NCBI RefSeq assembly: GCF_006345805.1 | Contig: NW_021835244.1 | Coordinates: 1-41,436 of the forward strand | DNA: 41,436 bases | DNA from: Octopus sinensis | Taxonomy: Eukaryota | Reading direction: 5' to 3' | In this document: positions 14,133-33,957 of the stretch, piece after piece | How the letters are laid out: each line of letters opens with the position of its first letter | How positions within the stretch are numbered: position 1 is the first letter of the stretch | Made by a program: the position numbers and the translations under genes | The notes under the pieces: generated by a model | What the model saw: only the letters and a program-made list of their open reading frames with translations | Databases searched by the model: none | What the model was told of the DNA's origin: nothing

Positions 14133-14679
14133 ACGAATATCTCTTCCTCCCCCTTCTCCCTCTCTCTGTCTAATCTAACGAATTTATCTGACAAGTGAAT
14201 ATGTATAACGTTTCATTGATTTTTAGGCAACTTATTTGGTGTCAATTGTTGTCCATATATTAACCAGTATTTCAATATCTTCAGTTAACTACTCTTTCAC
14301 AAATCTACTATTTAAATGTTAATGATTTTTATTTCATGAGAAGACCTTCAATGTGTGTCTAATTGTAATATAACAGATTTGAATCGCAACCAGAACCATG
14401 GGGACGGTATATATATTATATCATGTCCGGAACGTAGCAGTTTCCTTATCACTTAATGTTGTTTGGAAGACTGCTAATGAAACGATTGTAGACATTAATT
14501 AGTTCTGTATCATATCTCTGTTCTCATTAGGGTAACTGGCATGTGGCAGTTTTATATATTGTAAAATGGATTTAATTTAACAGCGTTTCTTGAGTAAGTT
14601 TGTACTCTGAAATAATATATATCTCATATATAACTGACGTACTTTACGGTACTTTAGTTTAATACGTGATACTTTGCAG

Positions 14680-14739
14680 GTTTTCTAAAATTCAAATTAT
14701 ATACAACATTCAAATAGTATTTCCAACAACATTGAGCCT
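14680..14739 (+). CDS. Host gene exon A (60 nt, phase 2/2), LRR-like: FSKIQIIYNIQIVFPTTLS(L)
   Basis: tttgcag acceptor, ct|gtgagt donor, open frame; joins exon B in frame to give ...FPTTLS-L-DLRHNQI. Fit to the LRR consensus is imperfect. Confidence 0.55.
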
Positions 14740-14892
14740 GTGAGTGTATGGACTGATATTATAAAGGATATACAGGGTGTCCATAATCAACCCTTATAAT
14801 TTGAATGATTCAGGAAGAATAGAAATAAGGATAACTCAGCAAGTTGCATGCAACCAATGGAACCCACGTAGAAATGTTCTGATGTTTCTAAT

Positions 14893-15147
14893 AAAGAACC
14901 GCTAAGTTACGTAGACGTAAACAACCCAAGACCTGTTGACAAAAGTGTTGGGGGATAAACACAAAGGCAAATACACACACATATATACGACGGACTTCCA
15001 CACAGTTTCCGGTCGCAAATTTATTCAAAGGGCTTATTCGACCCAAGGTTGTAGTAGACGTCACTTACCCAAGGTGGCACACAGTGCTACTCAGGAATCC
15101 ATGTCTGTGACAAGCAATCGTTATACCACAGAGCCATACCTGTGCCT
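14893..15147 (-). mobile_element. tRNA-derived SINE (octopus-type), diverged
   Basis: Reverse complement begins ggcacaggtatggctctgtggta (A-box-like) and aligns with the + strand copy at 35820-35942. Confidence 0.75.
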
Positions 15148-15509
15148 ACATCGAAAATAATATTTCTATCATAGATGAGAATGTTGTATAGACCCCATGA
15201 TATGCACATAACAGAGTCTCGTTGTTGTGTCATTTTTATATTTTATCATCTTCCATCTTTTGTTGTTAGGGGTTTCACAAAAGATTTTCTCTTAGCTTAG
15301 GAAATCTGAATCAGATTGAAGGAACCTATTCCTGTTCAAACAACACTGCCATAAGAACAATTCAAAGAAATAAACAACTGAACTGTGAACATGAACATTT
15401 ATTCCGTTCGTGTTGAGTAAAGAGCATTTTAGACAGTACTGAACAAGAGAAAGCAGATTTATTTACTTTTATTTTAATGTGTATAATATTTGTCTTTCTT
15501 TTTTTTCAG

Positions 15510-15581
15510 AGATTTGAGACATAACCAAATAAAAAACTATGAAGATGGTGCTTTCTTATTCCTCCCCAGCATAAGTCGCAT
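15510..15581 (+). CDS. Host gene exon B (72 nt, phase 2/2), one leucine-rich repeat: DLRHNQIKNYEDGAFLFLPSISR(I)
   Basis: Long polypyrimidine tract + cag acceptor, at|gtaagt donor; classic 72-nt phase-2 LRR exon matching LxLxxNxIxxxxxxxFxxLxxL. Confidence 0.9.
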
Positions 15582-15875
15582 GTAAGTACAACGAATCTGC
15601 TTACTGGAAAATTAAGATCTTATAGAAGAGATCATCCGTTTCTCAGTTCTTTGTGAAAGACAGATGACAATAAATAACGATGAATTGCTTTTAATTTTAG
15701 TGATTCGAAATGGTTATTTCCGAGTATTGTGTTTTATCATTGTAAATCTATGTTCAGATAGCATGAGGGTTGATTTAGCCTAATTTCATCCATGTTTATA
15801 AATATACACAATAAACTGGAGATGATATAATGGCCCAGACACATACATGCATAAATGCTTGTGTATGGGTATGTA

Positions 15876-16414
15876 TTGGGTCATCCCATAAATAATGCAG
15901 CTTTTAAACTTTTATTTTTCAAAATTAAGATAAACAAAGTTCTTTTTTAATCTAAAAATATACTCTCCTTCATTTTCTATAACGCTCTCCCATCTATCTG
16001 GTAGACTTGCGAGGCCCATCTAAAATTCACTTGTCCGTGACAAAAATACCCCTCCAGTACTGTTCTGACCTCGTCTACAGAATTCATATGTTTTTCGGTC
16101 CAAATGATTTTGAAGACTGTGGAATAAATGATAATCAGATGAGGCAATGTCCGGTGAATAAGGTGGGTGGGGTGACGTTTCCCATTCAAACTGCTCCAGC
16201 CTTTGGAATTTCAATCTTCTTGTATGTGGCCGAGAATTATCCTGATGGAAGAATACCTTTCGTCTTGAAACCAAAGATGGTGATTCTTCTTCTAGCGCTG
16301 AATTAATCTACTCAAGCTGCTTGTAGTAGTTCTCCTTTGTTATCGTTTGGTTTCCGGTTTAAAATCTCAAAGAGGATAACAGCACTTTACGTGGGTGGAG
16401 ACCTCTTTAGCCTG
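15876..16414 (-). mobile_element. Mariner transposon 3' half
   Basis: TA + TIR ttgggtcatcccataaataatgc; FHQDNSRPH...HPPYSPDIASSDYHLF (DD34D-type YSPD motif). Confidence 0.92.
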
Positions 16415-17742
16415 TGATTTCGTGGTGAAACCTTAAAAGCCAAGGGTTTAGTGCGGAATAATATGACAAATGTATTTGAAACAGACTGGATGGAATTATT
16501 TAACTGATGGGACTTCACCATCATTTTGTTTTTGTAAAAAATGTGAATCGTTCTTCCGGAGGAATTAAGAAAAGAATTAAAGAACATTTTTCTTATGAAT
16601 TTGGTTTTTACACCAAACAAAGGCGAAGTTTCAAGTAAAAGAAAATTTTCTACCGGTATTTAAACCAAAAAGGACTGTACTTTTGTCAACGTCAAAACGA
16701 GTTAACGAAGAGTTGGATAGACTTGAAAAGCTTCGAGTTATTGAAAAACTTGACAACGCTGAATGGGTGTCCCCAACAGTTTATATCAAGAAAGAAGATC
16801 TGTGTATATGTTGAGTTTTCAACAGAGATAAACGAATATTTGATGCCATATAATTACCCCTTACCAAGTCCGGAAGAAATTTTCGCGAATCTGGAGGAAA
16901 AGTTTTTCGAAGTTGGACCTATCTGAAGCACAACTGCGGGTACAAGTTGATGAGAAATGTTCAAAATTACTAACGATAAATACCCATATAGGAGTGTATA
17001 AATTTAATCGACTTCCTTTTGGTATTAAGTTAGTACCAAGTAGGTTCCAGCAAGTTAGGGACACTATGCTCGCAGGTTCGGATTTCGCAATAGCGTATCC
17101 TGACAACATACTCAAAATAAGTGAATCTCGTGGTCAGCATGCTGAGCATGTTAAAAAGGTCTTCGAAAAAATAAAAGATTAAGTTTAGCGAAGAATACTG
17201 TGGATTTTTATGCCAAGAATAAAATATCTCGGGCAGGTTATAGATGAAAATAGACGTAGACCAGACCCGTCAAAGGCGAGTGCAATATAGAATATGCCTC
17301 CCCCGACAAACATTACAACGTTACAAGCATTGGGTGGGGCTCGCAAATTACTACCAGGTACACATAGCGTATATGCATGATTTGAGAGCACCGCTGATTA
17401 ACTTGTTAAAAGGACGTTAAGTGGAACTGGTCGGACAAATGCCAAAATGATTTTAAAGAAATTAAAAGCATCTTAACGTCAGAATTGTCTTTATCACGTT
17501 TTGACCCGAATTTAGAAATGGTAGTGGCATCAAATGCTAGTAAAATTTGGTATTTGAGCTGTAATTTTACACAAATATGAAGATGGTATCGTGAAAGCTG
17601 TAGCTCGTGTTTTGCGTTCCTTATTTCCGGCTGAGAAAAGTTAGAGTCAAATAGAGAAAGAAACATCAGCCATGAAATCTGCGGTAAAGAAGTTCCATGA
17701 ATTTATACATGGAAGATGATTCCGTCTGCAGATAGACCACTG
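16413..17742 (+). mobile_element. Gypsy (Mag-like) pol relic: protease end, RT, RNase H
   Basis: YPLPSPEEIFANL, LLTINTHIGVYKFNRLPFGIK, AIAYPDNIL (decayed YLDD), IKYLGQVID, SQIEKE. Confidence 0.9.
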
Positions 17743-18110
17743 CTCATTATTCTACTTTCTGGTTTTGTGAAGCCTAATCTCTCAAGATTAGTATTTAGGT
17801 AGTGTGTTACATATCCCAGGGTCCTAATAATTACAGGTATAAACCTGAACTTGTAATCTGGATAGAGTAACCGCAAATTTCTTAATAGTTTATCGTAGGT
17901 ATTTTCATTTTCGCAGATCTTCAGCTTTATGTTTATGTCCGCTGGGCAGCTGATTTCAACAACTCTGCACAATTTCTCTTCTCCATCCCAAATCACTATG
18001 TCAGGTTTGTTGTGTCTACATTTTATTGAGATTTTCACGGGGACATTACACCAGTACTCCTTTTTATTATGAGTGACTACGGCTTCCAGTATACTGTGAG
18101 TTTTATTTCT
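17743..18110 (-). mobile_element. RLE endonuclease fragment, family C
   Basis: HNKPDIVIWDGEEKLCRVVEISCPADINIKLKICENENTY; homologous to ~11960-12300. Confidence 0.88.
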
Positions 18111-18200
18111 TGTCGTCCGGATTATCCGCGGAGCGAATCTCATTATACAGTATCGAAACTAAAACATCATATCTTAGTGTGTGTGTGTGTGTGTGTTGTG

Positions 18201-18231
<31 letters not shown>

Positions 18232-18377
18232 TGTGTGTGTGTGTTTGTGTATGTGTGTGTGTGTATGTGTATGTAGTTACCTAAAAATCAGGAAAAAAAA
18301 GAAGCACTGGGGGTCTGTTATTAGGCAATAAAATTGGTATATTAGTATAGTTTATTTAATGTTATATCATAGACCAA

Positions 18378-18805
18378 GGCAGCGAACCGGCAGAACCGTT
18401 AGCATGCTGGCCAAAAAGAAATGGTCGCCGACGTTTTGTTCGTGTTTATGTTCTGAGTTCAAATTACGCCGAGGTCGACTTTACCTTTCATCATTTAGAG
18501 ATTGATAAATTAAGTACCAGTTGAGGAGAGGGGCCGCTATAACCGACTTACACGCTTTGCTGGACTTGCTGGCCTTGTGCTAAAATTGAAGACGACGAGC
18601 TTGCAGAATCGTTATCATGCTGGACAAAGTGCTTGGCGCTATTTCTTCCGTTTATACGCTCTGAGTTCAAATTCCGAGGCAATCTTTACTTTTCAGCCTT
18701 TCGGAGACGATAAGTTAATTACCAATCGTGTACTAAGGTGGATGTAATCGATAAGACCCCAGCCATAAATCTTCAGACATTGTGCTTGTAGTAGAAAGAA
18801 TATTA
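18378..18805 (+). mobile_element. Two tandem tRNA-derived SINEs (starting 18378 and ~18591)
   Basis: A-box-like tggcagaatcgttag and B-box-like gagttcaaattcc; core ctttcatcctttcg...gataaattaagtaccag; same family as 32303-32522. Confidence 0.8.
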
Positions 18806-19001
18806 TATTCTTGCGATAATCAAATTACCGAATGGTTTCATGGTGGAAATGCAGAGGCGAAAGCACCAATCATCAAACATGTCGGAATGGAAATGTTACG
18901 GATATTATTACTTTTGATAATTTGGTAATCATGTGAATATATCATAATAATAATTATTATTATTATACACGTGTGTGTGTGTGTGTGTGTTTGTGTATAA
19001 A

Positions 19002-19604
19002 CTGGGTCATCCTATAAATAATGCGTTCATGCAGTTGCATGAACTACCTGCATCAACTTGTTATAAAAGCAGGTAGTAGTTCTACCTTGAACATATTCTT
19101 AGTGTAAGTTTTGAAGCGTGCAGTTCGATTTTAACAGTTATATTTTCAAAGCTATAATGGAAGTGACAAAGGAACATATTCGGCTTATTTTGCTTCATGA
19201 GTTCAATAAAGGCAACAATGCAATGAAAAGTGCGAGGAATAAGTTTAACCAGTGTCAACAATGGCGCCAAAACTTCCGAGCCGGAATCTACAGCCTAGAA
19301 GACAAGCCTCAACCAGGAAGATCTGTAGAACTCGACGAGGACGTTCTGAAACATTCCTTCGTAACTGTTGAGGAACTGGCAGATAAGCTTGGATTTGATC
19401 ATTCAACCATTCTTCGACACCTGCGTGCCATCGGAAATGTCAGAGAATTGGGTCAATTGGTTTCCCTCAAACTTTCTGAGTTTAATTGCGCGGGAAGAAT
19501 GAATCTGTGATCTTCTTTCACGTCACGTCTCAAGAGTGAACCTTCTTTGAACCAAATAATGACTGGTGACGAGAAATGGGTTCTCTAGAAAAATGTCAAG
19601 CGCC
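19002..19604 (+). mobile_element. Mariner transposon 5' half
   Basis: TIR ctgggtcatcctataaataatgc; MEVTKEHIRLILLHEFNKG HTH region; MTGDEKWV; breaks after NVKRR. Confidence 0.92.
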
Positions 19605-20690
19605 GGAAGTCGATTAAATTTATACACTCCTATATGGGTATTTATCGTTAGTAATTTTGAACATTTCTCATCAACCTGTACCCGCAGGTGTGCCTCAGAT
19701 AGGTCCAACTTCGGAAAAATTTTCCTCCAAATATTCGTTTATCTCTGTTGAAAACTCAACATATACACAGACCTTTTTTCTTGATATAAACTGTTGGGGA
19801 CACCCATTCAGCGTTGTCAAGTTTTTCAATAACTCGAAGCTTTTCAAGTCTATCCAATTCTTCGTTAACTCGTTTTGACGTTGACAAAAGTACAGTCCTT
19901 TTTGGTTTAAATACCGGTAGAAAATTTTCTTTTACTTGAACCTTCGCCTTTGTTTGGTGCAAAAACCAAATTCATAGGAAAAATTTTCTTTAATTCTTTT
20001 CTTAATTCCTCCGGAAGAACCATTCACATTTTTTACAAAAACAAAATGATGGTGAAGTCTCATCAGTTAAATAATTCCATCCAGTCTGTTTCAAATACAT
20101 TTGTCATATTATTCCGCATTAAACCCTTGGCTTTTAAGGTTTCTCCACGAAATGTCACATCACTTATCATTTTGCCCTTCAAATGCAATTTTTTTCCTGA
20201 AACATCACGTGCAATTTTCTAACTTTCTTTCGACCTATGTTTTCCGATTTTCTCCACGTATCTGCGTTTAGTGTTGTGATATCTCGGCACGTATCCAATT
20301 GTAACTTGGCATTCCACATTATTCATTTTCAAGAACACAAATTTGCTTTTCTGAGCCTCGTTTAGATTGTTTTGTTAGCAATACTTTCTTCGAAGATTTT
20401 TATTCGTTCGAACTTTCTTTTCTCGCTCTGCGATGTGGGGTTTTATATCCGAATTTCCCAGACTCAAAATATTAAAAAGTTTTACAAGACCAGTTACACT
20501 TAAAATGTAAGCCTCCGCACCAATAGTATGGATTGAGTCGTAACATTTGTTTTGCTTTTTTCTTATCCGTTACAGGTCTACTCGCATGAATATGAGACCA
20601 GTCTTGTTCTACAGCTTTATCCGCATCATGTCTTAAATTTATAATGATCTGGAATTCCTCTACAACTGCCTCTATGTTATTAACCGAGCT
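19605..20690 (-). mobile_element. Gypsy (Mag-like) relic: gag knuckles, protease, RT start
   Basis: 19605-20159 is an inverted near-copy of 16413-17016; further upstream YWCGGLHF knuckle remnant and QLDTCRDIT protease-like motif. Confidence 0.88.
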
Positions 20691-22040
20691 TCTATGTTGT
20701 GTTTGGCATATTAGCTGAACAATGACGAGCCTTTTTTTCTCTTTGAGCTCTCGCCAGTATTCGCCTACTTGCTCCCCTATTGTGGGTGCTGTCTCCCCTT
20801 TGTAAGCTGTCTTGTTTCTGCACCGTCCTTCAATACTCCGTAAACTTTAGACTACATTCCTAATCTCACAGTTAACCTGTGCTTTCATACTATGCAATTG
20901 TTTCCCGTACATGTAGGGACCTACCGAAGGAGTAAGTTCTACAGATCAAGATTTTATATGGGTTTCCGGCCTTTCTACTACTTTTATCCATAGATTTTCC
21001 TTTTCTAAGATGGTATGCTTGTTCGCCATTTGGGTCAACATCAACGAAAATGACATTCTGTTATTTCTTGTTGTCATACCATGAGTTGGACTTATCTATG
21101 TTTTTCCTGGTTCATTTGCATCCCGTTTCCATCACTTTTTATGATGGCCTTGTACTTAGCCCTGGCTTCTTTGTACACTCTAATCCTGTTCTTTTGGTTG
21201 TAGCCAGTGACCTGTACGCAGTGGATGAAGTGTTCTATATGTCTTTCCAATTCACAAAGGTCTCAAATGCGTGACACATTCCTCATCACTCTCACCAAGT
21301 CCACTATTAGAATATGAAACTTGCGTTGTCTGCAGTAGCTTCCTTCTTGTGGTCCAAGTATTTAGAAGCCATAGGTTGGGCATAGTGGAAATGAAAGACC
21401 TGGACCTTACTATTCTTAGTTTCCAGCCAGTATTCCGCATCTAAATCCAGTAGCCTATATTTCGGGTGCGTGTTAGGGCTGTCTACTGTAACTTTATTTC
21501 ACTTTGGCCACTATGTCGATATCAACCACATAGGGGCAGCACATGGTTAGGGTTCTAGAGTTCCCTGCTAATCTCCCTTTGAGTCCCTATCCGACCATAA
21601 CATAAATAGGTTAGCCTCATCATCAGCGACACTCACACCGATGGCTACACCTTCCTCTTAGGCGTATATCTTGTTATTAAACTTGAATATGTGGCCCTTA
21701 ACTGTCACCCGGGGACTCGCTCGTACTCATCGCACGTGCAACCATCTCTTTTACACGATCATCATTTTGAGTGGTTGGTATAGCGCTGGTCCACCCGTTC
21801 CATCTCTCTCTCTAGGAGTCTTCTTGGCCACTGAGGTGATAGTAGGGGGTCAACCCTTTACCGATGTAGTGGGACAGAAACGACTAATGTCATATTCATC
21901 TAAGTAAGCCTTGTCAACTGTCAGTTTCAGGAAGGGGCCCAGTTCTTCTGTGTCAACATCAATGGATGGGTATAAGGATACTACATCCATACTGCTCATT
22001 ACACATCGCGCCAGGTCGTAGCTATGGTTGCAGTCACTGA
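20690..22040 (-). mobile_element. Degenerate Penelope-like element (Naiad-like), RT + GIY-YIG
   Basis: Manual translation: SMDVVSLYPSID, HIFKFNNKIY, GVAIGV, PYVVDI, HYAQPMAS, DLVRVMRNVS, SWYDNKK, VIFVD, YKGET; colinear with the ORF at 40287-41252. Confidence 0.85.
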
Positions 22041-23099
22041 TTCAGAAGACTGATTGAATTAATGAGAATTACGAAGGAAAGAAATTAACATCGTATTAAC
22101 AAAGGATGACATAGTAATTAAAACAAAATATTTTCTTGAAGGAATAAATAATTTAGAATTAAAATAATTGTAGCGTGGTTACGGTAACTTAAAAAGTAAA
22201 TTAATAAATAAATTAATAAGTAAATACTCGGTAATGGTTCGGCCAAAGTGTAAAGGGTTCAGAACATTCTCTTTTCTGAAGATTATTTTTGTTAAAAAAA
22301 TGAGTGACGAATGTGAGCGAATTATTTGAAAAGCCTATTATTTCAGATATACCTGCCTTAATTTCCAGATTTATTTAGGATGTTTATCAATTAAAGCTAT
22401 TATATCAGATATAACTGGTATTTTACTCAGCAATACCTTGCAGGTCAGCAAAAACTATCGACTTTGACCAAAATACCTAATGTGTTTGCCGGCTGTAGCT
22501 AGGAGGTCAGCTCTATCTAATAGTTGGTAATCTGTATGTTATAGATTAGCTACATATATCTTGTATATCATCTAAATCTAGTTTGTTACCTGTTTGGTAT
22601 ATCATGTAGTATATTACCTATACATGTCCACTATATATTGTATGTCATCTATATACTGCATTCCTATGTATACTCCCTGTAGTCTCTTTGACCGATACAT
22701 TTTATTGTATCATGTTTGTCTTACGTCTCCGAAGTATATCTAGAATGCTATCTAAAGAAGATATTCTCTCTTTCTCTCCATCCTATTTAATTGTACCTTA
22801 CCAATTCTGATACGCGGAATTCTGTAATATGTCCCCAAATAATTATATTCGTATATATTCGTTTGCGTTTATATGTGAAGAATAATTAAAGACCAAAAGA
22901 AAGAAATGTGAGCTTAGTTCATGCTGAACCTGAAATACAGTTTGATTCAAAGCAGAAAATATTTTCACTTCAACAAAGCCTATTGTAGCATTTAGACGGA
23001 ATAGAAATATAAGAGAACTATTAATCTCTACTTCTGACTCCAGGAAGTCTAACATTAGAGTATCTGCACGCCGTACTTTGAATAACAGCCGTAAGAGAT

Positions 23100-24112
23100 G
23101 TAAGCCCTGTTCATTGTTCTTGTCTTCCTGTCCATCTCCTTTAGTTTCTTCTCTCTCCACTTCACGATTCCAGCGCCATACCGAACTATTGCGACTGCGT
23201 GCGAGTTTATTGCCGAAATTTCTGGCATTTACCTTCGAAGCCAATATATTTCTCACTCGCCTCAGGTACTCTCTTTTCCTTCATGTCATTGTGTTTGATT
23301 CTATCTGCCTCAAGTATTTCCGGGTATTTATAGCTGGATCGAGGTTGAATTGCCCTCATCCTTTCACCACTTAGCAACCATATGCCTTGTCCTGAGAAGC
23401 TTTCCTCGTCTCATCACCGTCGTAGCACATCTTGAGACTCCAAACTCCATCTTAATTTCATTGGATAAAATCCGCACAGACTGGACTAGGCTGTCCAGTT
23501 CTGATTCAGTTTTTGTGAATAGCTTCAGGTCGTCCAGGAATAGCAAGTGGTTTAGTTTTCCCTTACCTTTTCCCAGATCATACCCCAACTTTGTCTTCTG
23601 TAGTATTTCAATCAAGGAAATCATTCTTAGCACGAAGATCAGTGGGGGCACTTTATCTCCCAGGAAGATTCCTCTTTTTGATTTTCGCCTCTCTTAATGC
23701 TTGATTCCATGCTGCCAATTTCGTTCACGAGTCCTTCATGCCATTCCATGTGAGGCTTCACATATTTTCTACTATTCCATACATTCCCATTGTTCTTATT
23801 ATCCAGGTGAGTGCTTTCATATCGTTTGCTTTAAGATTGACAACCAATAACATGTTCAGGTTTGTGTGTCGTTTCTTGCAGTTCCTGCTAATTAGATCAT
23901 CAATTAAGAGCTGATCCTTCGTTCCCCGACCCCTCCTTCGGCACCCTGTCTGTTCAATATCTAGCAGTCCACTTTTTTCAAGAATCTATACGGTTCACCG
24001 GCCAAAACACCTGACATTAGTTTCCACATTAGCAGAAGCCTGTTATTGGTCTAAAGTTGGATGCAACATTTCCCTTTTCAGGATCCTCGGCACATAACAA
24101 TATCTTTCCTTT
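23100..24112 (-). mobile_element. R4-type non-LTR RT fragment
   Basis: [51 protein letters not shown]. Confidence 0.85.
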
Positions 24113-24910
24113 TGTCATCCAGCTGGGTAATTGCATTCTTTCAATTTTGTTTCCATTTCTTGCCGAGTGTCTTTCCGACACCCAGGACAGAGAAATTCAC
24201 TATATACATTCGTAGACCATTTAAATAAACACACCGGATTACGAAGGGAAGTTATGGCATGGAAAGAAGGGAAAGAAGAAGCACAGAATTGGTGAGCCAA
24301 ATGGCTGTGCCATGCCATCATTATTGTTTAGAAAAAGCAGAAAATATTTAATGATATTTCGAAAAATAAACCTTTATCATTTTATTTTCTCCTTGCTAAT
24401 TATGAGCATTCACGTGCATGTCTGCCATAGAAACTAAAAAAGAATACATCTCTGTACTTCTTCAGTTTCTGCAGTGGTACATCTCCAACCTTAAAGACAG
24501 CTGGTGCGTAGAACAATCACAACGTTCCTAGTGCCACAACGTCCCGTCAAAATATATTTTACTCAGAAACAATGGCCAGGTTGTTATTACCAAACCTCCG
24601 ACACCAAAACAGCCCTAAACCACCATAAAATGGAATCATTTCAAGTGGCTAATAGTCTTCTCGCTTAAAGGCACTTTATTATTCAACAATGTTAGCTAAA
24701 AGAGAACAGGAACTTTATATGGTTCCACTTTCCAGTAAAAACCATTTCACATTATTGATGCTATCAGCATCTTTTGGAAAAAATAAACCTGAATGTCATA
24801 ACTTTAATAAGCTTGCTCAAATTTTATAAACCTTGTTTCTTCTTAAATCAAACAGAAGTTTCTCTTTTGATCTGAAGCGTATTCAGTTAGAGTTCTCTTT
24901 ATAATTACAG

Positions 24911-25068
24911 CTACCTCAAAGGCAATAAGGATTTGATGTGTGGATGTCACCTGCCAGCCTTGGTGAAATATATGAGAAATAACTATAACAGAACTGTGAA
25001 TGTCAGTGGCGAGTGTCAGTCAGATCTCGGCAAAAGAATACCAATACCGAAATATTCGCAATGTACAA
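24911..25068 (+). CDS. Host gene exon C (158 nt, phase 2/1), last LRR strand + LRRCT cap: YLKGNKDLMCGCHLPALVKYMRNNYNRTVNVSGECQSDLGKRIPIPKYSQCT
   Basis: ttacag acceptor, a|gttagt donor; GN...CxC...C...C LRRCT cysteine pattern; phases match exons B and D. Confidence 0.9.
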
Positions 25069-25579
25069 GTTAGTAAAATCCTCCTTGTTTCTCTTGTTCT
25101 TTTATTATTAACACAAAGAAAATTCCGGTTATTCTCTGCAGCTCACAATATAATGTCTTACGAAACAGGAACAACAGATACAGATATAAAGAAATAAACG
25201 TTTTACCATCCACACGCTTCACATATTCTTTCTGATGCATTTAAGGAGTCAACTGTATCACACAAACCCTAATTGACACACACACACACACACACACACA
25301 CAAGCACACATAATGACACACACATACACACAACAGCGCACGCAGGCATGAATGGGCATTCACATACACACATGTACAGAGACACATCCTCCTTCTAACT
25401 CACCCTCTCTCACATACATTCTCACTCACATCCGTACGACTACATAAGCATAGAACCAGAAGATAAGATTGATATTGAAGAGGTCATGAATGGCGACAAA
25501 ATGTCTCTAACAACCATAACTGGTTGAGAGAATAATTCGTTAACAAATGATTAAACAAATTGACGAATCATAAAGAAGT

Positions 25580-26005
25580 GAAATTGAACAAGTGCGAGCG
25601 TTTTTTATTGGCATAATGACCTCCCGGAGGTACAATAAATGCTCTAGTATTCGATCCTCAGAAAAGGGCAGCTTGGTAAGAAAGCCTACCCTCATCTATG
25701 GACATGAATGTTGATTAACGACCGGAAGAGTGTGATCACAAAAAAACAGAGGCCGAAATTAATTTCCTCCGAAGAATCTCTAGAATAACACTACTTGACA
25801 GGGTCCATGCTTCGGAGATGACGGCGCCTCTCCAAACCGGCAGAACATCTAAGGGCAGACCAAGAACAAGATGGTGAGATAATATCCAGTTTCAGTCGGT
25901 CCCGTTCGAGAATCCAGCCAGAAAGTGTATTGACAATTGCTTTTGATAGGACCCTATGCATGAGGTACTTCAGGACTCTATCTTCATGACCCTCACTAGA
26001 ATAAT
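25580..26005 (+). mobile_element. RTE-clade LINE 3' fragment, internally deleted
   Basis: PTLIYGHEC...AEINFLRRISRITLLDRV...GRPRTRW. Confidence 0.75.
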
Positions 26006-26899
26006 GAACATAGAGGATGAACATATGGAGGAAAATGTGCAGTGTTCGGATTAAATATGACGATCTTTATATCCCATTTTTTCAGGAAAAGCTTAAGGTA
26101 TTCGTGAACAGTCAATGGCGTTGGAGAGCATAAACATAAAGTTGTAGCTGAGAAAAATTTAGCTGACATGGAGAACTGGGATCCATCTGAATATTGGAAA
26201 ACAGTCACATGTATCATTATGTTTCGTACCGGTTATCAAAATGCTAACATCATGCTTGCTGCTCAATGCTTTGTGAACAATGTAAAGACTGTAAGACGTG
26301 ACATGGAGAGATTCAGCAGAAACTAGAAGCTAAAATTCGAATGCGAGAAGAAAATTATTTGAGAAGATCAAATATCAAGACAAGATAAATTCCAAGAAAC
26401 AAAAGAAAAATCAGGAATATAAAAAGTCTGACAAGATGGCACACTTCATGAAGATCAAATAATGTAGACGGTTCAATCAAGGCGTTGGTACACATGTGTG
26501 AAGAGAGGGTAAGAAAATGGGTGTCAGAAGGAGGAGAGAAGAGCAAAAGTGTTTTTTTATTGGAAGAAGAGTGAACACAATTAGTGAGAGACGGAAGAAG
26601 AGCGATTGCGTGGCGGTTATGTATATGGGAGTGAAATGGTTGCAGTTGATAGCGGCCAAGCAGTAATGAAAGGTAAAAGGAGGAGAGAGACGTGAATGAG
26701 TTAGAGGTACAAACCAAAGCAAGGTTTAAGAAAGTGAATGTGTGAGAGCACATGTGTGTGTGTGTGTCTGAAGAGTAAGTGTGCATGAATATGTCTGGGT
26801 CCATGTACCAGTGTATACTTGTTTGTATGTATGTGTAAATGATAGAAGACGCTAGGGGAAGAGGTGTGCGTGTGTGTGTGTGTGATAAAGTATGAAGAG

Positions 26900-27370
26900 A
26901 GTAACTATGATGACCGAGGTGAGATGTTTGTGTGTGTAAAATCTGCGGCGTGGGCAGGAATTGAAATCAAAAGTTGTATAAGTTTTGAGATAGAAGATAT
27001 ACATCACTTTCCTGAAGAAATGGAGAATCCGGTGCTGAAGGTCAACTTGAAAATCGAGAGGCGTTGGGTAGAGTGGTCGGTGAAGCGGAAACATCGAGTG
27101 ACTGGTGATGCTTTGCCAAGTAGGATGACTCTATGATACTTTAAGATGTCCTTGATATTATGGGCCAGTGTTCACCTAGATCGGATCACGAACAAGCCTT
27201 GTTTTGAGGATATGAGGCTGGTAAATGTCTTTACCGTGACCCTTTCCAAGGCTGCTGTGATTGGCTGGAGAAAAGGGAGGAAGATATCCTCAAACCAGAG
27301 ATATGCCTTGATTGTTTACATCAGAGAAGAAACCTCTGTTAAAGGCGGCCACGGTTCCAAGTGATGGACA
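26900..27370 (-). mobile_element. Highly degenerate Penelope-like GIY-YIG relic
   Basis: ...SPVTRCFRFTDHSTQRLSIF and ...IFYLKTYTTFDFNS resemble the PLE endonuclease tail PVxRHFxxxxHS...LIFxLxTxxPxGLN. Confidence 0.5.
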
Positions 27371-27608
27371 TAATATGGGGATCGATTACGTACACCACCC
27401 AAGAAAACATACACTTCATTATGTATAGAAATGTATATGCGCACACGTACATGCACACATACAAACACATACTCACAGATATACACATACATGCATACAT
27501 ACATACATACATACATACATACATACATACATACATACATACATACAACTTTCCAAAAGAAGAGTAGAATCAAATATGTGGAGCAGGGGCGCACATGAAG
27601 ACAAAATG

Positions 27609-27653
27609 TGTCACTGAAGAGGTCACAGATGCGCGACGAAAGATTTTCAGACA
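27609..27653 (+). ncRNA. Degenerate minimal hammerhead ribozyme motif (canonical C3-G8 core)
   Basis: tgtca-CTGAAGA-g-gtcac agatgc gcgac-GAAA-gattttc-agaca; mismatches in stems I and II; homologous to 38985-39034. Confidence 0.6.
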
Positions 27654-27896
27654 ATGGTCATGAGATAGAATAAGAACAATAATAAAGGTATATTTATTTG
27701 GCGAAAAAAAGGACCATCCCGAAATACAACAATATGTGTTTCAACACGGGATTTCACATCAGAAGTCTTGGAAAATAAATTCATAAACAAGTAAAAGAAT
27801 AAAAGACTAATAGACTATGTATTATAACATTTTATTATATATTTAAATTAAATGTCCTTGACAAGTCTTGCCAAGCAGTTTGTCCTTTCATTTTGC

Positions 27897-27961
<65 letters not shown>

Positions 27962-27962
<1 letters not shown>

Positions 27963-28333
27963 CATCACCGGAACTGTAAAAATCTGTACAACTCTCCACA
28001 AGTTTATCATTTATATATATACAATTATGTCTAGATTCGCAAGTGTATGCATGAGAATACATACATAGTGCAAAACATACGAATCTGTACTTATACATAC
28101 ATATATACATACGTAGATACATACATGCATACATACGTAGATACATACATACATACATACATACATACATACATACATACATACCATACATACATACATA
28201 CATACTACATACATACATACATATAAAAGTACCCTGTTAATGTTGTTGAAACTCTAATGAAGAGCCTAGATTAGAAACCGGTTCTCTCCTAATTGGCAAG
28301 AAATCTTCAAATAAAACTGAATACTGACATACA
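27962..28333 (+). mobile_element. 3' end of RLE family C (last codons + 3' UTR containing (CATA)n)
   Basis: ITGTVKICTTLHKFII and the following UTR match the reverse complement of ~11800-11930; ends gaatactgacatacat. Confidence 0.75.
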
Positions 28334-28662
28334 TCCTTAAACTTATATATTCAAAAGAGCAGCATACTATTGCTAATGTTTTCTAATTTTATTCAAATAT
28401 TTTTTGGCTCAGTTCATGCATTAAGACCATGTTTATTGTTCACATGTTTATAGTTCATAAATTAGGAAAAGGTTTATAGTCTTTGTTAATGTATAAGAAC
28501 ATGTTTATAGTCTTCCGTAATAATTTGGATTATATGTCTAACACGTATTAATTCCAACACTTAACACGTATATATTTGCTTCACATCACAAAGTATTTCT
28601 TGTTATTGCTATGCATGACACTATTTGGTTTCTAAATATGGATATTTATTTATGTTCTCTAG

Positions 28663-28754
28663 ATTACTCGTTGTTTCAACGGAATTTACAGTGTCAGACA
28701 TGTTCAGGGATGATGTGCAATCATTCAGGAGTGACAAACTGTCCAGGAGCAGAG
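28663..28754 (+). CDS. Host gene exon D (92 nt, phase 1/0), first part of Ly6/uPAR-like three-finger domain: (N)YSLFQRNLQCQTCSGMMCNHSGVTNCPGAE
   Basis: ttctctag acceptor, gag|gtaaac donor; LxCxxC start typical of three-finger domains; phase matches exons C and E. Confidence 0.88.
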
Positions 28755-28949
28755 GTAAACCGAAATGTTACTTTCTTCTTTTCCATTAAAATATATCTAC
28801 AACCATCACTCGACAGCCAGTGTGACCAGGTAGCTTGTACTATGCTCTCGCTAATTGTTTTAGGTGCCAGTGTAAACGTAGACACCCTCTCGGTATTTTT
28901 ATCCTTAACTCAATGGGACAGCAAGGATAAGACACATGAAGGGAGAGAT

Positions 28950-29080
28950 TGATGACCATCACTAGACTGGAACTCATTTTAAGTTAAGACTGGGTCAAAG
29001 CGAAATGAGGTGCCTTGTTTAAGAACACAACGTGCCACCCTGTCCAGGAATCGAACACGCGAACTTATGAGTGATCATTG
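28950..29080 (-). mobile_element. tRNA-derived SINE fragment
   Basis: Reverse complement has B-box gttcgattcc followed by gttgtgttcttaaacaaggcacct. Confidence 0.55.
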
Positions 29081-29089
29081 CCTGACAAA

Positions 29090-31420
29090 CATGGTTGTAC
29101 TTAGAGTGTGATATATGAATGCATGTGACCAGGAATCAATTCGGAAACAAAGGTCTCAGTTCAATGACCTCGGAACGCTAGATATAAAAAGGGTCGTTGG
29201 AAGTTGGACGTGTCCCTACCAGCTCGCAACGATTACAGGAAGCGTTTTAATGAATTAGTTAAGCATCAGGTGACAGAAGCAACCATGAAGAACCGGTGGT
29301 AGGACGTACTTAAGGGGCCTATTAGATGAGAATCGAAAGTGTTTCGAAAAGAGCTACCAATAAAGAGGAATAGAGTGGAAAGGTGATTAGGAGAGGTGCT
29401 TGGTAAAAGCATGGCAACCAACATTCTAGTGCTGAATTTGGCCCTCGAGCATTTCTTTAATGGAAAACAAGAAGACTGCGTTACCAGAGCAAAAGTCGTC
29501 TCTGCATTAAAACACGAGGGAACAAACACCCACAATTTGGCCTTTGGTGGATGGAAACGGTACGTGGTACTCGGTTTCGAAGAACAGATATGTATGGCTA
29601 CGGTCGAGTATTCGGGGCCGCTAATGATTCGGAGACAATAGGCGACCTCAAGTGCCTACCTCCATGGACTACCTGCTCCAGTGAGAAGCTGATGACACTA
29701 GCTCATATACTGGAGGTGATGAGCGAAGGAAGAAGGCACAAACTGCCATGTTAAGATGGTCTGCTTTCTGAGATTTACGAATTCATGCCAGATTTGCCTG
29801 GGAAACTCTTAAAAGATAATTATCGCAACTAGCAGCAGAACGGGGGGAATTCCTAGTGGTGTGAGACTGGAGTGGCAATGCCACTAAGAAAAGGAGACAC
29901 ATTATACAATTTTCGGCCCATAACTTTTGCAAATTCAGAATTTAACATATGGGTAAAAATGATAGCTTTTGTTAGGGTCGTGGACATTCTTTACTTGGAC
30001 GATATGCAAGAAGCGGCCGAGTTCGAACAATTTTTACAACACTTTTATTTGCTGCGATGCACAGCGACACCTACTCGGTGGTCAAAGTTTACAGCCTTTT
30101 CTCAAAGAAGGCTGCCCTCTCTCTCGCCTCACATGTAGGTGCCGGGTTTTAAGTCACAACAGCGATAGATGGAACCAGCTCAAAGATGTTCCTTTCGAAC
30201 TGGAAAGTCCTTGTCAGTTTATGCGGACGATGCCATTGTCACGGTATTGGATACTACCGAAGTGAAAACAAACGGTACAATTTTAAAAGAATACGAAACG
30301 GTGGCATGCACTAAGATCAACTTGGACAATTGAGTAGATATAAAGCTAGGCATCTGGAGAGGCAGGTGGAGAGGCTGGCGAAAAGTGTTGTGCTACCCTG
30401 GCACGGTGAACAGCTTAAATTACTTGGCGTCTGGATATCTCCCTACGTCCAGGTGGAGAAGGACTGAAAAAAGATAAGGAGCAGCGTGGCTAGTCTTAAT
30501 CAGAAATGGGCTGAAATAAAGCTGTCTCCGAAGGGTCGGGCAGTGGTGAGGAAATGTCTTATCACCTATTTTATTGATTATCACATGACCATTATGCCCT
30601 GTCCCAGCTTCTATTACACTGGATTTACTTTTCGTGGAAGAGAAGTGTTCCGATTATCGAACAGCCTATCTTTGTGCAGCTCCTTCTGAAAGACGGGTTA
30701 GGAATGCTCTTGCTGCCAATGCACAGGCACGCGTTGAGGGTGTGGAGACCGATCGTGAAGCACGTTTTTTCGCGGTTCGTGTCTGTGAATGGGCTTCGGT
30801 CCTCAGTGAACTTAAGACCAAGATTAGATTCCCGGTATCTATTATGTCATCAGGCAATCTATCCCTCTCGTAGTTGTGTAACTGAATCTGTAGACGCTCC
30901 ACTCTAGCAATGTAGAGGATTTGTAGCAAGGAAGAATGAATGTATCCTCCGAGAAAGTTTAGATGTCGATGGAAACAAATTGGTTACTCTGTTCAGGAGG
31001 ACTTTCGGATCGAGAACTACTATGGTTAACTTCCGGAAGCCTCAGTTCAGGAAGTGCTATCAAGGCACCCTAGCTGTTCGAGCTTTTCTGAGATGCGAGC
31101 AGAGCGATAAAACCATTCTGCACACAGTCGTTCAGTGTCAGGGAATTGCTGACTTGTAGAGTTATATCGAATAAATGTTGTGTGTAAAGCGGATCTGGCT
31201 AATGGCTGAGTCTATAAGGATTATATCCCGTCCCTCTCCTGGAACTGGGCAGAGAACATAGTTTTTCTTTGTCTTGTGGCTTTAGCGATAGAGGTTGTTT
31301 GGTAGACGAGATTGAAAGTTATGAGAACAGAGAAATATATAAACCTGCCAACGAAAAGATGGAAGAGGATTAAATCTTCCCTCATACCAAGTACTTCATC
31401 AAAGTTTCCAGAACATAACT
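29090..31420 (+). mobile_element. Degenerate L1/Tx1-like LINE ORF2 relic
   Basis: NFRPITFANSEFNI, GCPLS, SVYADDA (YADD 30220-30231), KLLGV, LSPKGRAVV, GLGM, C-terminal RCEQSDKTILHTVVQC knuckle; many stops and deletions. Confidence 0.8.
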
Positions 31421-32302
31421 GGTTGGGGATTATTTCAAGTGGAAAAGGCAAAACCTATATATTTAAAACGCAGCCAAAACCCGGGTTGAAATTGCCAGAC
31501 ATGTCCTGGACAACACAGTTATACTCCAGTACATGGGTCAAAGAATCTCAAGTGAGAAAATAAGAGAGACTGAAAACGACACAGAGCTATGGTTCACATC
31601 AACTGATATTGAATCGAGCCGGATATAAGTACATGGCTGCATCCTCTTCTGTTTTACTGTCTGTCCTCTTCTCAGATCTTTTTTTGTTCTCTTGAAGCTG
31701 AATTACCTTATTTAATACTTCATTCATTTGAAATCACCAACTTTATTTGTTTTTTGAAGTTTCAGGTTCAAATTAAGGTTACACACATCTTATTTCTAAC
31801 TTTGTGGTCGATATTTTCATTGCCTTTTATTGTTACCAGGTTTTTGCGATCATTAATTGTATTTTCGTTTTGTATCGTCCTTTTTATCTTCTAAATTTCT
31901 GGTATTTTTTCGTTTTCAGAATCTATCTTATTAAGTTAACTTGTTTGTTGAAGTCCGATACGTTTAGATCTGGGCCATTTTCTCTCCAAATTTTATACAA
32001 ATATATTGTATTTTCATTTCGTGACTATAAACTATGCTTGAGGAATAGAAGCATATTTCTCTTGCGTCCATTTTATGCATTTTCTGTTTTATTTGCTAGA
32101 CTTGAGGAGTTCAGTCTGACAATTATATTTAATTATCATCTTTCTGTGCGGATGTATTAGTTTCCGTTCCTGGTGAGTTTTGCACACGTTATTTTTTTCG
32201 TAAATTTTGCGCAAAAGAAATTCCAGTGTGCATTCTTCGATTGAGAAGAAACTTGGATTGAATGATATTTTGTGTTTTATTGGAATTATTTGACGAATTT
32301 AA

Positions 32303-32522
32303 GGTGGCGAGCTGGCAGAATCGAGAGAGCACTGGACGAGATGCTTAGCGGTATTTTGCCCGTCGTTACGTTCTGAGTTTAAATTCCACCAAGGTCGACT
32401 TTGCCTTTCATCCTTTCGAGGTCACTAAATAAAGTTCCAGTGAGACACTGAGGTGTATGTAATCGAGTAGTCCTCTCCTCTCAAAATTTCAGACCTTGTG
32501 TCTATGATAGAAAGGATTATTT
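32303..32522 (+). mobile_element. tRNA-derived SINE
   Basis: Same family as 18378-18805. Confidence 0.8.
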
Positions 32523-32889
32523 CACTAATTGTAAGTTTGATGGTGAATGACAAAGAGTTGTGATTTTAATATGGACTTTAATTCGATGGCCATGTTTATA
32601 TGTGATCCGAGCGCGTTGGTATTCATGAAGCATTTCAAGAAATGTTATTTATAAATGGTAAATATCAATAAACTTTCAAAGGGATCACTTAATCTATTAT
32701 CTTACAACGCTCTCGCAAATTATTTTCGGTCTTATTTGCTGTTCTGGGATATTCTTTGTAACAATGATTAAACTCTTTTGCGTGGTAAACATCTCCAGCG
32801 TTGTAGTTGTTGTTGTTGCTGTAGTTAGCAGTAGTCGTACAAGTGAATGTCGTGGTTGTAGTATATGACTGTTATATCTATTCTTACAG

Positions 32890-33073
32890 CCTGTTTGTCG
32901 GTTGACTTTATCAATGAAAGGTGTTACACTGAGGTTTGAAAGGTCCTGCAGCACATACAGAAAATGTGTGGAAGCTATGAGAAACAATAGCCACAGATGC
33001 AAGAAATGGACCGATGGCACTTCCTGTACTGGTTGTTGCGTCGGAAACTTGTGTAACAAGAATGACTTCATGG
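32890..33073 (+). CDS. Host gene exon E (184 nt, phase 0/1), rest of three-finger domain: PVCRLTLSMKGVTLRFERSCSTYRKCVEAMRNNSHRCKKWTDGTSCTGCCVGNLCNKNDFM(G)
   Basis: ttcttacag acceptor, g|gtaagt donor; ends with the diagnostic CCxxNLCN motif. Confidence 0.9.
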
Positions 33074-33698
33074 GTAAGTGTTATTTATTATCTAACTACA
33101 TCTGATTTATTACACCTTAGTAGTTAGTAAGAACATTGATTAATAGTTTATATATAGGAAGCTATTTTATTGTGTGCATGTGCGTGTGGCATGTGTGTGT
33201 GCAAATGTGTGTGCATGTGTGTACATATGTGCGTATGCTTTGAGATAAATTTCTTTAATTTTCCCCGAGATAAAAGTCACACAGCACTTTTTTTTTATTT
33301 AAAGCTCCCGTTCCTGTATGGTTGCATTCTATTTACAATCGATCAGGAAGTTTTGACTGGTGAAGTCTTGTCTCCCGCAAGGAACATATGAACTTCCGCA
33401 AAACAGGAGCGCATATTCTATCGGGGTTGACAAATGATCGTTTATGTCTATGATAATGATGTCTGAATGATTCTTCCGTTACCCTAATATATACTTTAGG
33501 TTCATTCCTGTAATTTGATTCAGTATGAATGCTAAATACTATCGACTTTGCCAGACAGTTACCCTCTAGGGGGCAGTTCTAACGAATTCCGGAGGTTGCA
33601 TAATACTTACTGGCCAGCCAGCTGTTTGCATCTTTTGTCGATTCAGCTTCCCAGCATTATAAGCTTTGATACAGCAACTGGAATCCTGGAAATTTATG

Positions 33699-33750
<52 letters not shown>

Positions 33751-33957
33751 TATATATTCTTGATTTTTATATAATTTTCATCTGTCTTGCCCGCCTATGG
33801 TCTGGTGTTGGCTGAATTTTCTTTGGGGAACATTCTTTCTTTGTAGTTAAATCGTATGTGATCTACTTCTAGCATATGGCTGTCCACATAGTGGTTTTTT
33901 AGCCCTAAATACACACACACACACATATATATATATGTATATATACATATATGTATA

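What the first reader, a model, noticed from the sequence alone, without database searches (positions are those of the whole stretch)
14680..33073. Host gene fusing LRR-LRRCT directly to a 12-Cys Ly6/uPAR-like three-finger domain
Seen: five exons with GT-AG sites and matching phases give ...LDLRHNQIKNYEDGAFLFLPSISRIYLKGNKDLMCGCHLP...ECQ...QCT-NYSLFQRN-LQCQTCSGMMCNHSGVTNCPGAEPVCRL...RSCSTYRKCVEAMRNNSHRCKKWTDGTSCTGCCVGNLCNKNDFMG, still open at the 3' end (phase 1). Known: LU/three-finger domains usually have 8-10 Cys and occur in small secreted or GPI-anchored proteins, toxins and TGF-beta receptor ectodomains. LRRCT is usually followed by Ig, FN3, EGF or a TM helix. Inference: this is an unusual extracellular architecture with a probable extra disulfide. 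It may be the ectodomain of a lineage-expanded receptor, for example an adhesion-type GPCR if GAIN/7TM exons follow downstream; none are visible here. The ORF track misses most of it.
Basis: partly seen in the sequence, partly recalled or inferred. Interest (0 to 1): 0.75.

Follow-up and report, generated by a model that had tools for sequence, protein, structure and literature searches.

The report
Octopus three-finger adhesion receptor exons
Four exons here encode the middle of the outer part of an octopus cell-surface receptor (an adhesion GPCR), where leucine-rich repeats run into a predicted three-finger domain of the ordinary 12-cysteine Lynx2/LYPD6 type; it likely signals like other adhesion receptors, and because such receptors are already reported in molluscs and starfish this is a member of a known, expanded family.

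Summary
Four of the five exons hold up (15510-15581, 24911-25068, 28663-28754, 32890-33073): canonical GT-AG, one open frame, and a relative's probable-RNA contig joins the last three at the predicted borders. The first (14680-14739) is most likely intron. The Cys-rich domain is a three-finger (LU) fold by AlphaFold2 plus structure search (Z 8.0 LYPD6B, 7.8 Lynx2) and by profile search (LYPD1, E 7e-5). Its 12 cysteines align one-to-one with LYPD1/LYPD6, so the count is not unusual. The window is about 99% identical to two copies on contig C29; one gives an open 920-aa frame LRR-LRRCT-LU-SEA-like-HRM-GAIN-GPS(HL|TSF)-7TM. The family has dozens of copies here and is Ritschard 2019 'group 3', whose supplement already lists LU hits. 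LU-bearing GPCRs are reported in molluscs, arthropods and starfish. This scan noted the same layout before on other DNA (e1-8842654, e1-9503616). Still open: ligand, role of the LU domain, whether this copy has its 5' exons, and why its last LRR exon diverges faster than its introns.

The parts
15510..15581 (+). Exon B: last leucine-rich repeat (72-nt, phase 2-2 module), DLRHNQIKNYEDGAFLFLPSISR
   Evidence: Splice sites and frame; Pfam LRR_8 E 0.017; matches family proteins; 9 of 72 nt differ from each of three near-identical copies
24911..25068 (+). Exon C: LRRCT cap (CGC...C...C)
   Evidence: 61 genomic matches; 3' border at 25068 seen in probable-RNA contig X8 record 30
28663..28754 (+). 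Exon D: first part of the LU/three-finger domain (Cys 1-4); starts phase 1
   Evidence: loose end at 28663 in X8 resembles the end of exon C; 92-nt gap in X8 record 30
32890..33073 (+). Exon E: second part of the LU domain (Cys 5-12, C-x2-CC-x4-CN); ends phase 1. D+E form a symmetric phase 1-1 module of 92 codons
   Evidence: 78 genomic matches; fold and profile searches; contigs X1 record 8 and X3 record 24 cover 32888-33071 with 3 other letters; tandem LU copies 92 aa apart in P0001
14680..14739 (+).
   Evidence: No family or Pfam match; not conserved in distant paralogues; skipped in model P0005
5014..41436 (+). Segment about 99% identical to G000:C29:3410088-3446957(+); 5014-33723 also matches the inverted copy C29:3409987-3381238. 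In those copies the SEA-like, HRM, GAIN, GPS and 7TM exons follow; the next exon would lie about 9 kb past this contig's end

Best explanation
These four exons encode the last LRR, the LRRCT cap and a predicted three-finger (LU) domain in the ectodomain of an octopus group-3 adhesion GPCR, which likely continues, as its near-identical copies do, into SEA-like, HRM, GAIN and 7TM exons and likely signals by the tethered-agonist mechanism. Most likely working (inferred): a long, variable LRR arm of about 20 or more repeats binds a cell-surface, matrix or microbial ligand. The disulfide-locked LU domain, of LYPD1/LYPD6 type, acts as a second binding or hinge module between arm and stalk. Ligand pull is passed through the GPR126-like SEA-HRM-GAIN stalk, the GAIN domain is self-cleaved at HL|TSF, and the exposed TSFAILM peptide activates the 7TM domain. 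Shown here: exons, frame, family and domain order in the sister copies. Predicted: LU and SEA folds. Inferred: cleavage, signalling, ligand and the LU domain's role.
For: Homologues of exon E are octopus proteins, many named 'adhesion GPCR G6-like', with LRR, GPS and 7tm_2. The inverted C29 copy has 19 GT-AG exons giving an open 920-aa frame to its stop, 71% identical to P0010, with GPS CSCDHL|TSF; the forward copy is open over 18 exons (791 aa) up to a gap. LU model pLDDT 75.5; the top 36 rows of the wide structure search are all three-finger or TGF-beta-receptor ectodomains (LYPD6B Z 8.0, rmsd 2.4, 78 aligned; Lynx2 Z 7.8), and the first unrelated row has Z 4.2; Foldseek agrees. The profile hits LYPD1 at E 7.1e-5 and all 11 hits at E<=10 are three-finger proteins. 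The next domain is ferredoxin-like, with the GPR126 SEA domain (Z 7.6) and two other SEA domains among tied top rows; Pfam SEA E 0.013 in the Argonauta homologue. Three LU-carrying O. bimaculoides homologues are listed in Ritschard group 3. A matching 5' half (signal peptide/LRRNT plus at least 20 LRR exons) at C29:2166452-2244668 runs into an assembly gap. Spliced C-D-E contig.
Against: No 5' family exon lies in the 15.5 kb upstream of exon B in this contig, and the link to the orphan 5' half is not shown. The downstream exons are outside the window and inferred from sister copies. The spliced contig has 15 other letters in 131 (a relative, not this copy), and the runs are only guessed to be RNA. 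Foldseek gave no E<=0.001 match. The SEA call is one of several tied ferredoxin-like folds at Z<8.1. Profile A3 contains one gastropod LU protein; without it (A2) the PDB hits were ACVR1, LYPD6 only, at E 1.5-6.5. No ligand or signalling data exist.
Confidence: 0.8

Rival explanations
1. This copy is a 5'-truncated segmental duplicate, or a redundant haplotype contig, of the C29 gene and makes no protein of its own.
For: It is an unplaced 41-kb contig about 99% identical to C29, with kilobase blocks of zero difference. The 15.5 kb upstream of exon B hold transposon remnants and no family exon.
Against: All four exons are intact. Window, forward and inverted copies each have private sites (120, 97, 153), and a fourth version exists, so there are at least two loci if the assembly is of one diploid animal (not known). 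The family's LRR arrays break the assembly at gaps, which explains missing 5' exons. Exon B differences are mostly amino-acid changing (7 of 9).
Confidence: 0.12
2. The gene makes a secreted or shed LRR-LU(-SEA) recognition protein or decoy without the 7TM part.
For: 41 of 71 stored LU-positive proteins lack a GPS motif. In the third copy no family exon was found after the third GAIN exon before the next LU exon.
Against: Many of those database models are partial or cut at gaps. The window's 3' end follows the forward C29 copy, whose frame stays open into the 7TM exons.
Confidence: 0.08

Closest known systems
Octopus-expanded adhesion GPCRs, group 3 of Ritschard et al. 2019 (PMC6408891)
   Same: Same family: LU-carrying homologues A0A0L8FLR8, A0A0L8GYR2 and A0A0L8HDZ7 are group 3 in its table. 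LRR, GPS and 7TM are reported there. CDD 'LU' (cd00117, E 6e-8) and SSF57302 hits stand in its supplement 3.
   Different: The main-text parts I read (1-4 of 6) name LRR and Death domains but not LU or SEA; this particular copy and the full domain order are not described there.
LU-domain GPCRs of molluscs, arthropods and echinoderms (Paramonov et al. 2026, PMC13719153; starfish LyAr2/LyAp2, PMC9410279, PMC11595613)
   Same: An LU domain in a GPCR ectodomain; the starfish ones are annotated as adhesion GPCRs with LYPD6/Lynx2-like LU; the 2026 figure legend lists LRR, LU, GPS and 7TM among its domains.
   Different: The figure and supplements could not be seen, so whether its mollusc example has this exact order is unknown. 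'Octopus' does not occur in its main text. There is no mention of a dozens-strong expansion or of tandem LU copies.
Human LYPD1/Lynx2, LYPD6, LYPD6B
   Same: 12-Cys LU pattern including C-x2-CC-x4-CN, aligned one-to-one; top structural matches.
   Different: Those are stand-alone membrane-tethered LU proteins (Lynx2 is GPI-anchored, PMC11595613 passage); here the domain is internal, between LRRCT and SEA-like domains, in 1-3 copies.
Vertebrate ADGRG6/GPR126
   Same: SEA-HRM-GAIN-7TM stalk order (PMC6954182 passages; structure match).
   Different: GPR126 has CUB-PTX where this family has LRRs-LRRCT-LU; orthology was not tested.

Membership tests
Ly6/uPAR (LU) three-finger domain | Three-finger beta fold | tested here: met
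   AF2 model pLDDT 75.5; top 36 VIA rows are LU or TGF-beta-receptor ectodomains, best Z 8.0 against 4.2 for the first unrelated row; predicted, not solved
Ly6/uPAR (LU) three-finger domain | Conserved Cys pattern ending CC-x4-CN, with 1-3 optional extra disulfides | tested here: met
   12 Cys align with LYPD1 (E 7.1e-5) and LYPD6; optional extra disulfides stated in PMC9410279
Ly6/uPAR (LU) three-finger domain | Pfam curated cut-off for an LU family | tested here: not met
   UPAR_LY6_2 13.8 bits against cut-off 31.5 for exon E; 6 of 12 members at best E 0.17. This explains why annotators miss it; CDD LU did hit one family member
Ly6/uPAR (LU) three-finger domain | Actual disulfide connectivity | not testable with these tools
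   Needs mass spectrometry or a structure
Adhesion GPCR | GAIN domain with GPS motif next to a class-B 7TM | tested here: met
   Met in the about 99% identical C29 copies and in homologues (Pfam GPS, 7tm_2 above cut-off; GAIN E 4e-4 below cut-off in P0011); these exons lie beyond the window's end
Adhesion GPCR | Cleavage triad H-X-S/T at the GPS | tested here: met
   CSCDHL|TSF in both C29 copies; motif definition from the abstract start of PMC13062082 (search listing); some paralogues have Y or R for H
Adhesion GPCR | Autoproteolysis and tethered-agonist signalling | not testable with these tools
   Needs expression and signalling assays
Octopus group-3 adhesion GPCRs (Ritschard 2019) | Falls with listed group-3 sequences | tested here: met
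   Three listed members carry the same LRRCT-LU module and share a tree with the window peptide (LRRCT-LU only, no outgroup, so monophyly not tested)
SEA domain (downstream, in sister copies) | Ferredoxin-like fold matching solved SEA domains | tested here: inconclusive
   GPR126, TMPRSS6 and 2e7v SEA domains at Z 7.5-7.7 are tied with unrelated ferredoxin-like folds; Pfam SEA E 0.013 in P0047; position before HRM fits

The most novel reading that the evidence does not exclude
The family is a diversified recognition-receptor system of octopods, built by exon shuffling. Interchangeable 72-nt LRR modules vary on their binding face under positive selection or gene conversion, a phase 1-1 LU cassette is copied one to three times as a co-receptor module, and a conserved GAIN-7TM signalling base sits below. 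It would give octopus skin, suckers and gills a variable, VLR/TLR-like sensor for microbes or self that signals through G proteins.
Probability: 0.25. Interest if true: 0.7.

Novelty: new member of a known kind. Interest (0 to 1): 0.3.

Why it matters
It fills in the ectodomain of a known octopus receptor expansion whose middle part annotators miss: LRRs-LRRCT-LU-SEA-like-HRM-GAIN-7TM. That gives defined modules for ligand screens and explains the 1-3 LU copies by a symmetric two-exon cassette. If the fast change of the last LRR exon reflects selection on ligand binding, the family would be a candidate variable recognition system in octopus. As it stands, the architecture class and the family are already in print, so the gain is modest.

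Tried and rejected
Exon A as part of the gene: rejected; no joint 14739-15510 among the rows shown, but 203 rows were not shown, so this is no evidence. '12 Cys is novel': rejected. First model (LU+SEA of P0006): the LU part had pLDDT under 50 and was not used; the LU domain was folded again alone. Sequencing-run search: no RNA holder listed; the runs laid are guessed to be RNA. ESM Atlas: no usable hit for the LU part of P0005; no answer for two other homologues. Search for non-cephalopod proteins with the same layout: the LU profile against 1.84 billion representatives gave 26 hits, of which those named are Octopus, Argonauta and one stand-alone gastropod LU protein (10 of 26 looked up; others known). 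One search gave 2 unnamed hits and one search gave 51 octopod hits. I therefore could not confirm earlier notes that scallops or bivalves share the layout; these searches are too weak to deny it. Search across window 5014 found only a high-copy repeat, so the contig's 5' join is unresolved. PMC10084454 and PMC6900090: passages, nothing on this family. No complex prediction was run, as no partner is proposed.
Full report
Observation. The window is a whole unplaced contig (G000:C11715) of a 2.7-Gb genome; the closest named proteins are from Octopus species. It matches none of 7 family proteins and no Pfam family, falls outside the region conserved with more distant paralogues (homology starts at about 14896), and is skipped by the database model P0005 of the third copy. 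I treat it as intron.

Splicing. No run on record as RNA was listed. Four runs guessed to be RNA were laid on 14500-33140. In X8, one 400-nt contig lies on exon C up to 25068 (letters 9-139) and on 32888-33058 (letters 230-400), leaving exactly exon D's 92 nt; it differs at 15 of 131 letters in exon C, so it is a relative's transcript. X1 and X3 each have a contig covering 32888-33071 with 3 other letters and running on at both ends, and a joint from 15569 to 28663 with unknown letters between. The family is thus spliced as modelled; expression of this very copy is not shown.

The family. Exon E has 78 genomic matches, exon C 61, the signal-peptide/LRRNT exon 63 and the GPS exon 48, clustered on C29 and C27; some on small contigs are probably redundant. 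Window 5014-41436 is about 99% identical to C29:3410088-3446957, and 5014-33723 to an inverted copy beside it; a third copy is 94-96% identical. In the inverted copy 19 GT-AG exons give an open frame of 920 aa to the stop: LRR, LRRCT, Cys domain, SEA-like, HRM, GAIN, GPS (CSCDHL|TSFAILM) and 7TM, 71% identical to P0010. The forward copy is open over 18 exons up to a gap. The next exon would lie about 9 kb beyond this contig. A 5' half whose first exon is identical in protein to that of the third copy (94% DNA identity over 9.3 kb) carries at least 20 LRR exons of 72 nt and ends at an assembly gap (C29:2166452-2244668). Its link to this contig is inferred only. Of 72 stored proteins, 71 hit the LU profile (by construction); 62 have an LRRCT-like CxC just before it, 30 a GPS motif, and 5 have two or three LU copies. 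Exons D+E form a phase 1-1 cassette of 92 codons, the spacing of the repeats in P0001.

The fold. A first model of LU+SEA left the LU part unresolved. Folded alone from 17 sequences, it reached pLDDT 75.5 in the best of five models (61.7-63.0 in the other four). The wide structure search ranks 36 three-finger or TGF-beta-receptor ectodomains first (LYPD6B Z 8.0, rmsd 2.4 over 78 residues; GPIHBP1 and Lynx2 7.8), and the first unrelated chain has Z 4.2. Foldseek gives the same families, none at E<=0.001. The profile hits human LYPD1/Lynx2 at E 7.1e-5 over the whole domain with all 12 Cys aligned, and all 11 hits at E<=10 are three-finger proteins. The narrower profile without the gastropod row gave ACVR1 and LYPD6 only, at E 1.5-6.5. 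Pfam cut-offs are not reached. The following domain is ferredoxin-like, tied between SEA domains (GPR126 Z 7.6) and unrelated folds; its place before HRM matches GPR126 (PMC6954182, passages).

How it likely works. By established adhesion-GPCR biology and the intact H-L-T triad, the receptor is likely self-cleaved in the GAIN domain and activated through its tethered peptide. I infer that the LRR arm binds the ligand and that the LU domain is a rigid second binding or hinge module, by analogy with Lynx2-type proteins, which modulate membrane receptors (PMC11595613, passages). No ligand is known. One hint of diversification: exon B differs from each of the three sister copies at 9 of 72 nt, against 19 of 995, 26 of 998 and 30 of 987 in its flanks (Fisher p 4e-5 to 8e-4; not corrected, one of five exons examined). 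Seven of the nine differences lie in amino-acid-changing codons, several at the variable positions of the LxxN strand. Against the forward and inverted copies it is the second most divergent 72-nt window of the region; exons C and D hardly differ (0-3). Selection and gene conversion from a paralogue are not told apart here.

Rivals. A truncated or redundant copy (0.12): no 5' exon in 15.5 kb and long identical blocks, but intact exons and private sites in each of three versions (120, 97, 153). A secreted form without 7TM (0.08): common among partial database models, but the window follows the copy that stays open into the 7TM.

What is known. Ritschard et al. 2019 (PMC6408891; parts 1-4 of 6 of the text; supplement searches; one part of file 2) describe group 3, an octopus-expanded adhesion-GPCR clade with LRRs in 5 of 22 sequences, signs of positive selection, and expression in axial nerve cord, suckers, skin and gills. 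Three LU-carrying homologues found here are in that group, and its InterPro table has a CDD LU hit and an SSF57302 hit on two of them. Paramonov et al. 2026 (PMC13719153; abstract, whole results section, passages) report LU-bearing GPCRs in molluscs, arthropods and echinoderms, with LRR and GPS in the figure legend. The figure and supplements could not be read and may show this exact layout. Starfish LyAr2/LyAp2 are adhesion GPCRs with a LYPD6/Lynx2-like LU (PMC9410279 and PMC11595613, passages). Six literature searches listed no paper that describes the full LRR-LU-SEA-HRM-GAIN order in octopus; the library lacks most subscription papers. Earlier notes of this scan describe the same layout on other DNA; one gave me the lead to the 2026 paper, which I checked. 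Their claim that bivalves share the layout I could not confirm.

Verdict. A real fragment of a member of a known, expanded octopus adhesion-GPCR family with an internal three-finger domain of an ordinary type. New member of a known kind; interest 0.3.

Noticed in passing
window 15510-15581 against G000:C29:3420580, 3399497, 3143262: The last LRR exon differs at 9 of 72 nt from each sister copy (flanks 2-3%), mostly changing amino acids at the variable strand positions (DLRHNQI / YLHDNRI / DLRGNRI).
   Followed up: partly
G000:C29:3323100-3506512, gap at 3409988-3410087: Two about 99% identical copies of the gene sit back to back as an inverted pair across a 100-N gap, both starting at the base that matches window 5014, inside a high-copy repeat. 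This may be two haplotypes scaffolded as a palindrome.
   Followed up: partly
window about 33720-33760; G000:C29:3456177-3459679: The window and the forward copy part from the inverted and third copies just after exon E. In the forward copy the first two SEA-like exons lie 18 kb downstream and are only 85-89% identical to those of the other copies, whereas later exons are 97-100% identical: a likely exon swap from a paralogue.
   Followed up: partly
G000:C29:2166452-2244668: Orphan 5' half of this subfamily: signal peptide/LRRNT exon plus at least 20 LRR exons of 72 nt in recurring types, cut by an assembly gap.
   Followed up: partly
window 5001-33723: Divergence between sister copies is patchy: kilobases of zero difference alternate with blocks of 2-4%, as from gene conversion, recombination or consensus mixing.
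   Followed up: partly
window 16387-17700 and 19523-20222: An inverted duplication of about 430-600 nt within intron B-C (16417-17016 against 19728-20153) in a decayed retrotransposon-like reverse-transcriptase stretch; element class recalled from motifs, not tested.
   Followed up: no
window 40218-41252 (+): A 344-aa open frame ending in a GIY-YIG-like motif (YIGETSR), resembling a Penelope-type retroelement; label recalled, not tested.
   Followed up: no
P0041 (O. bimaculoides homologue): A family member with LRR-LU-GPS-7TM plus a C-terminal Death domain (Pfam E 3e-6), already noted by Ritschard 2019 and mostly skin-expressed in its table.
   Followed up: partly
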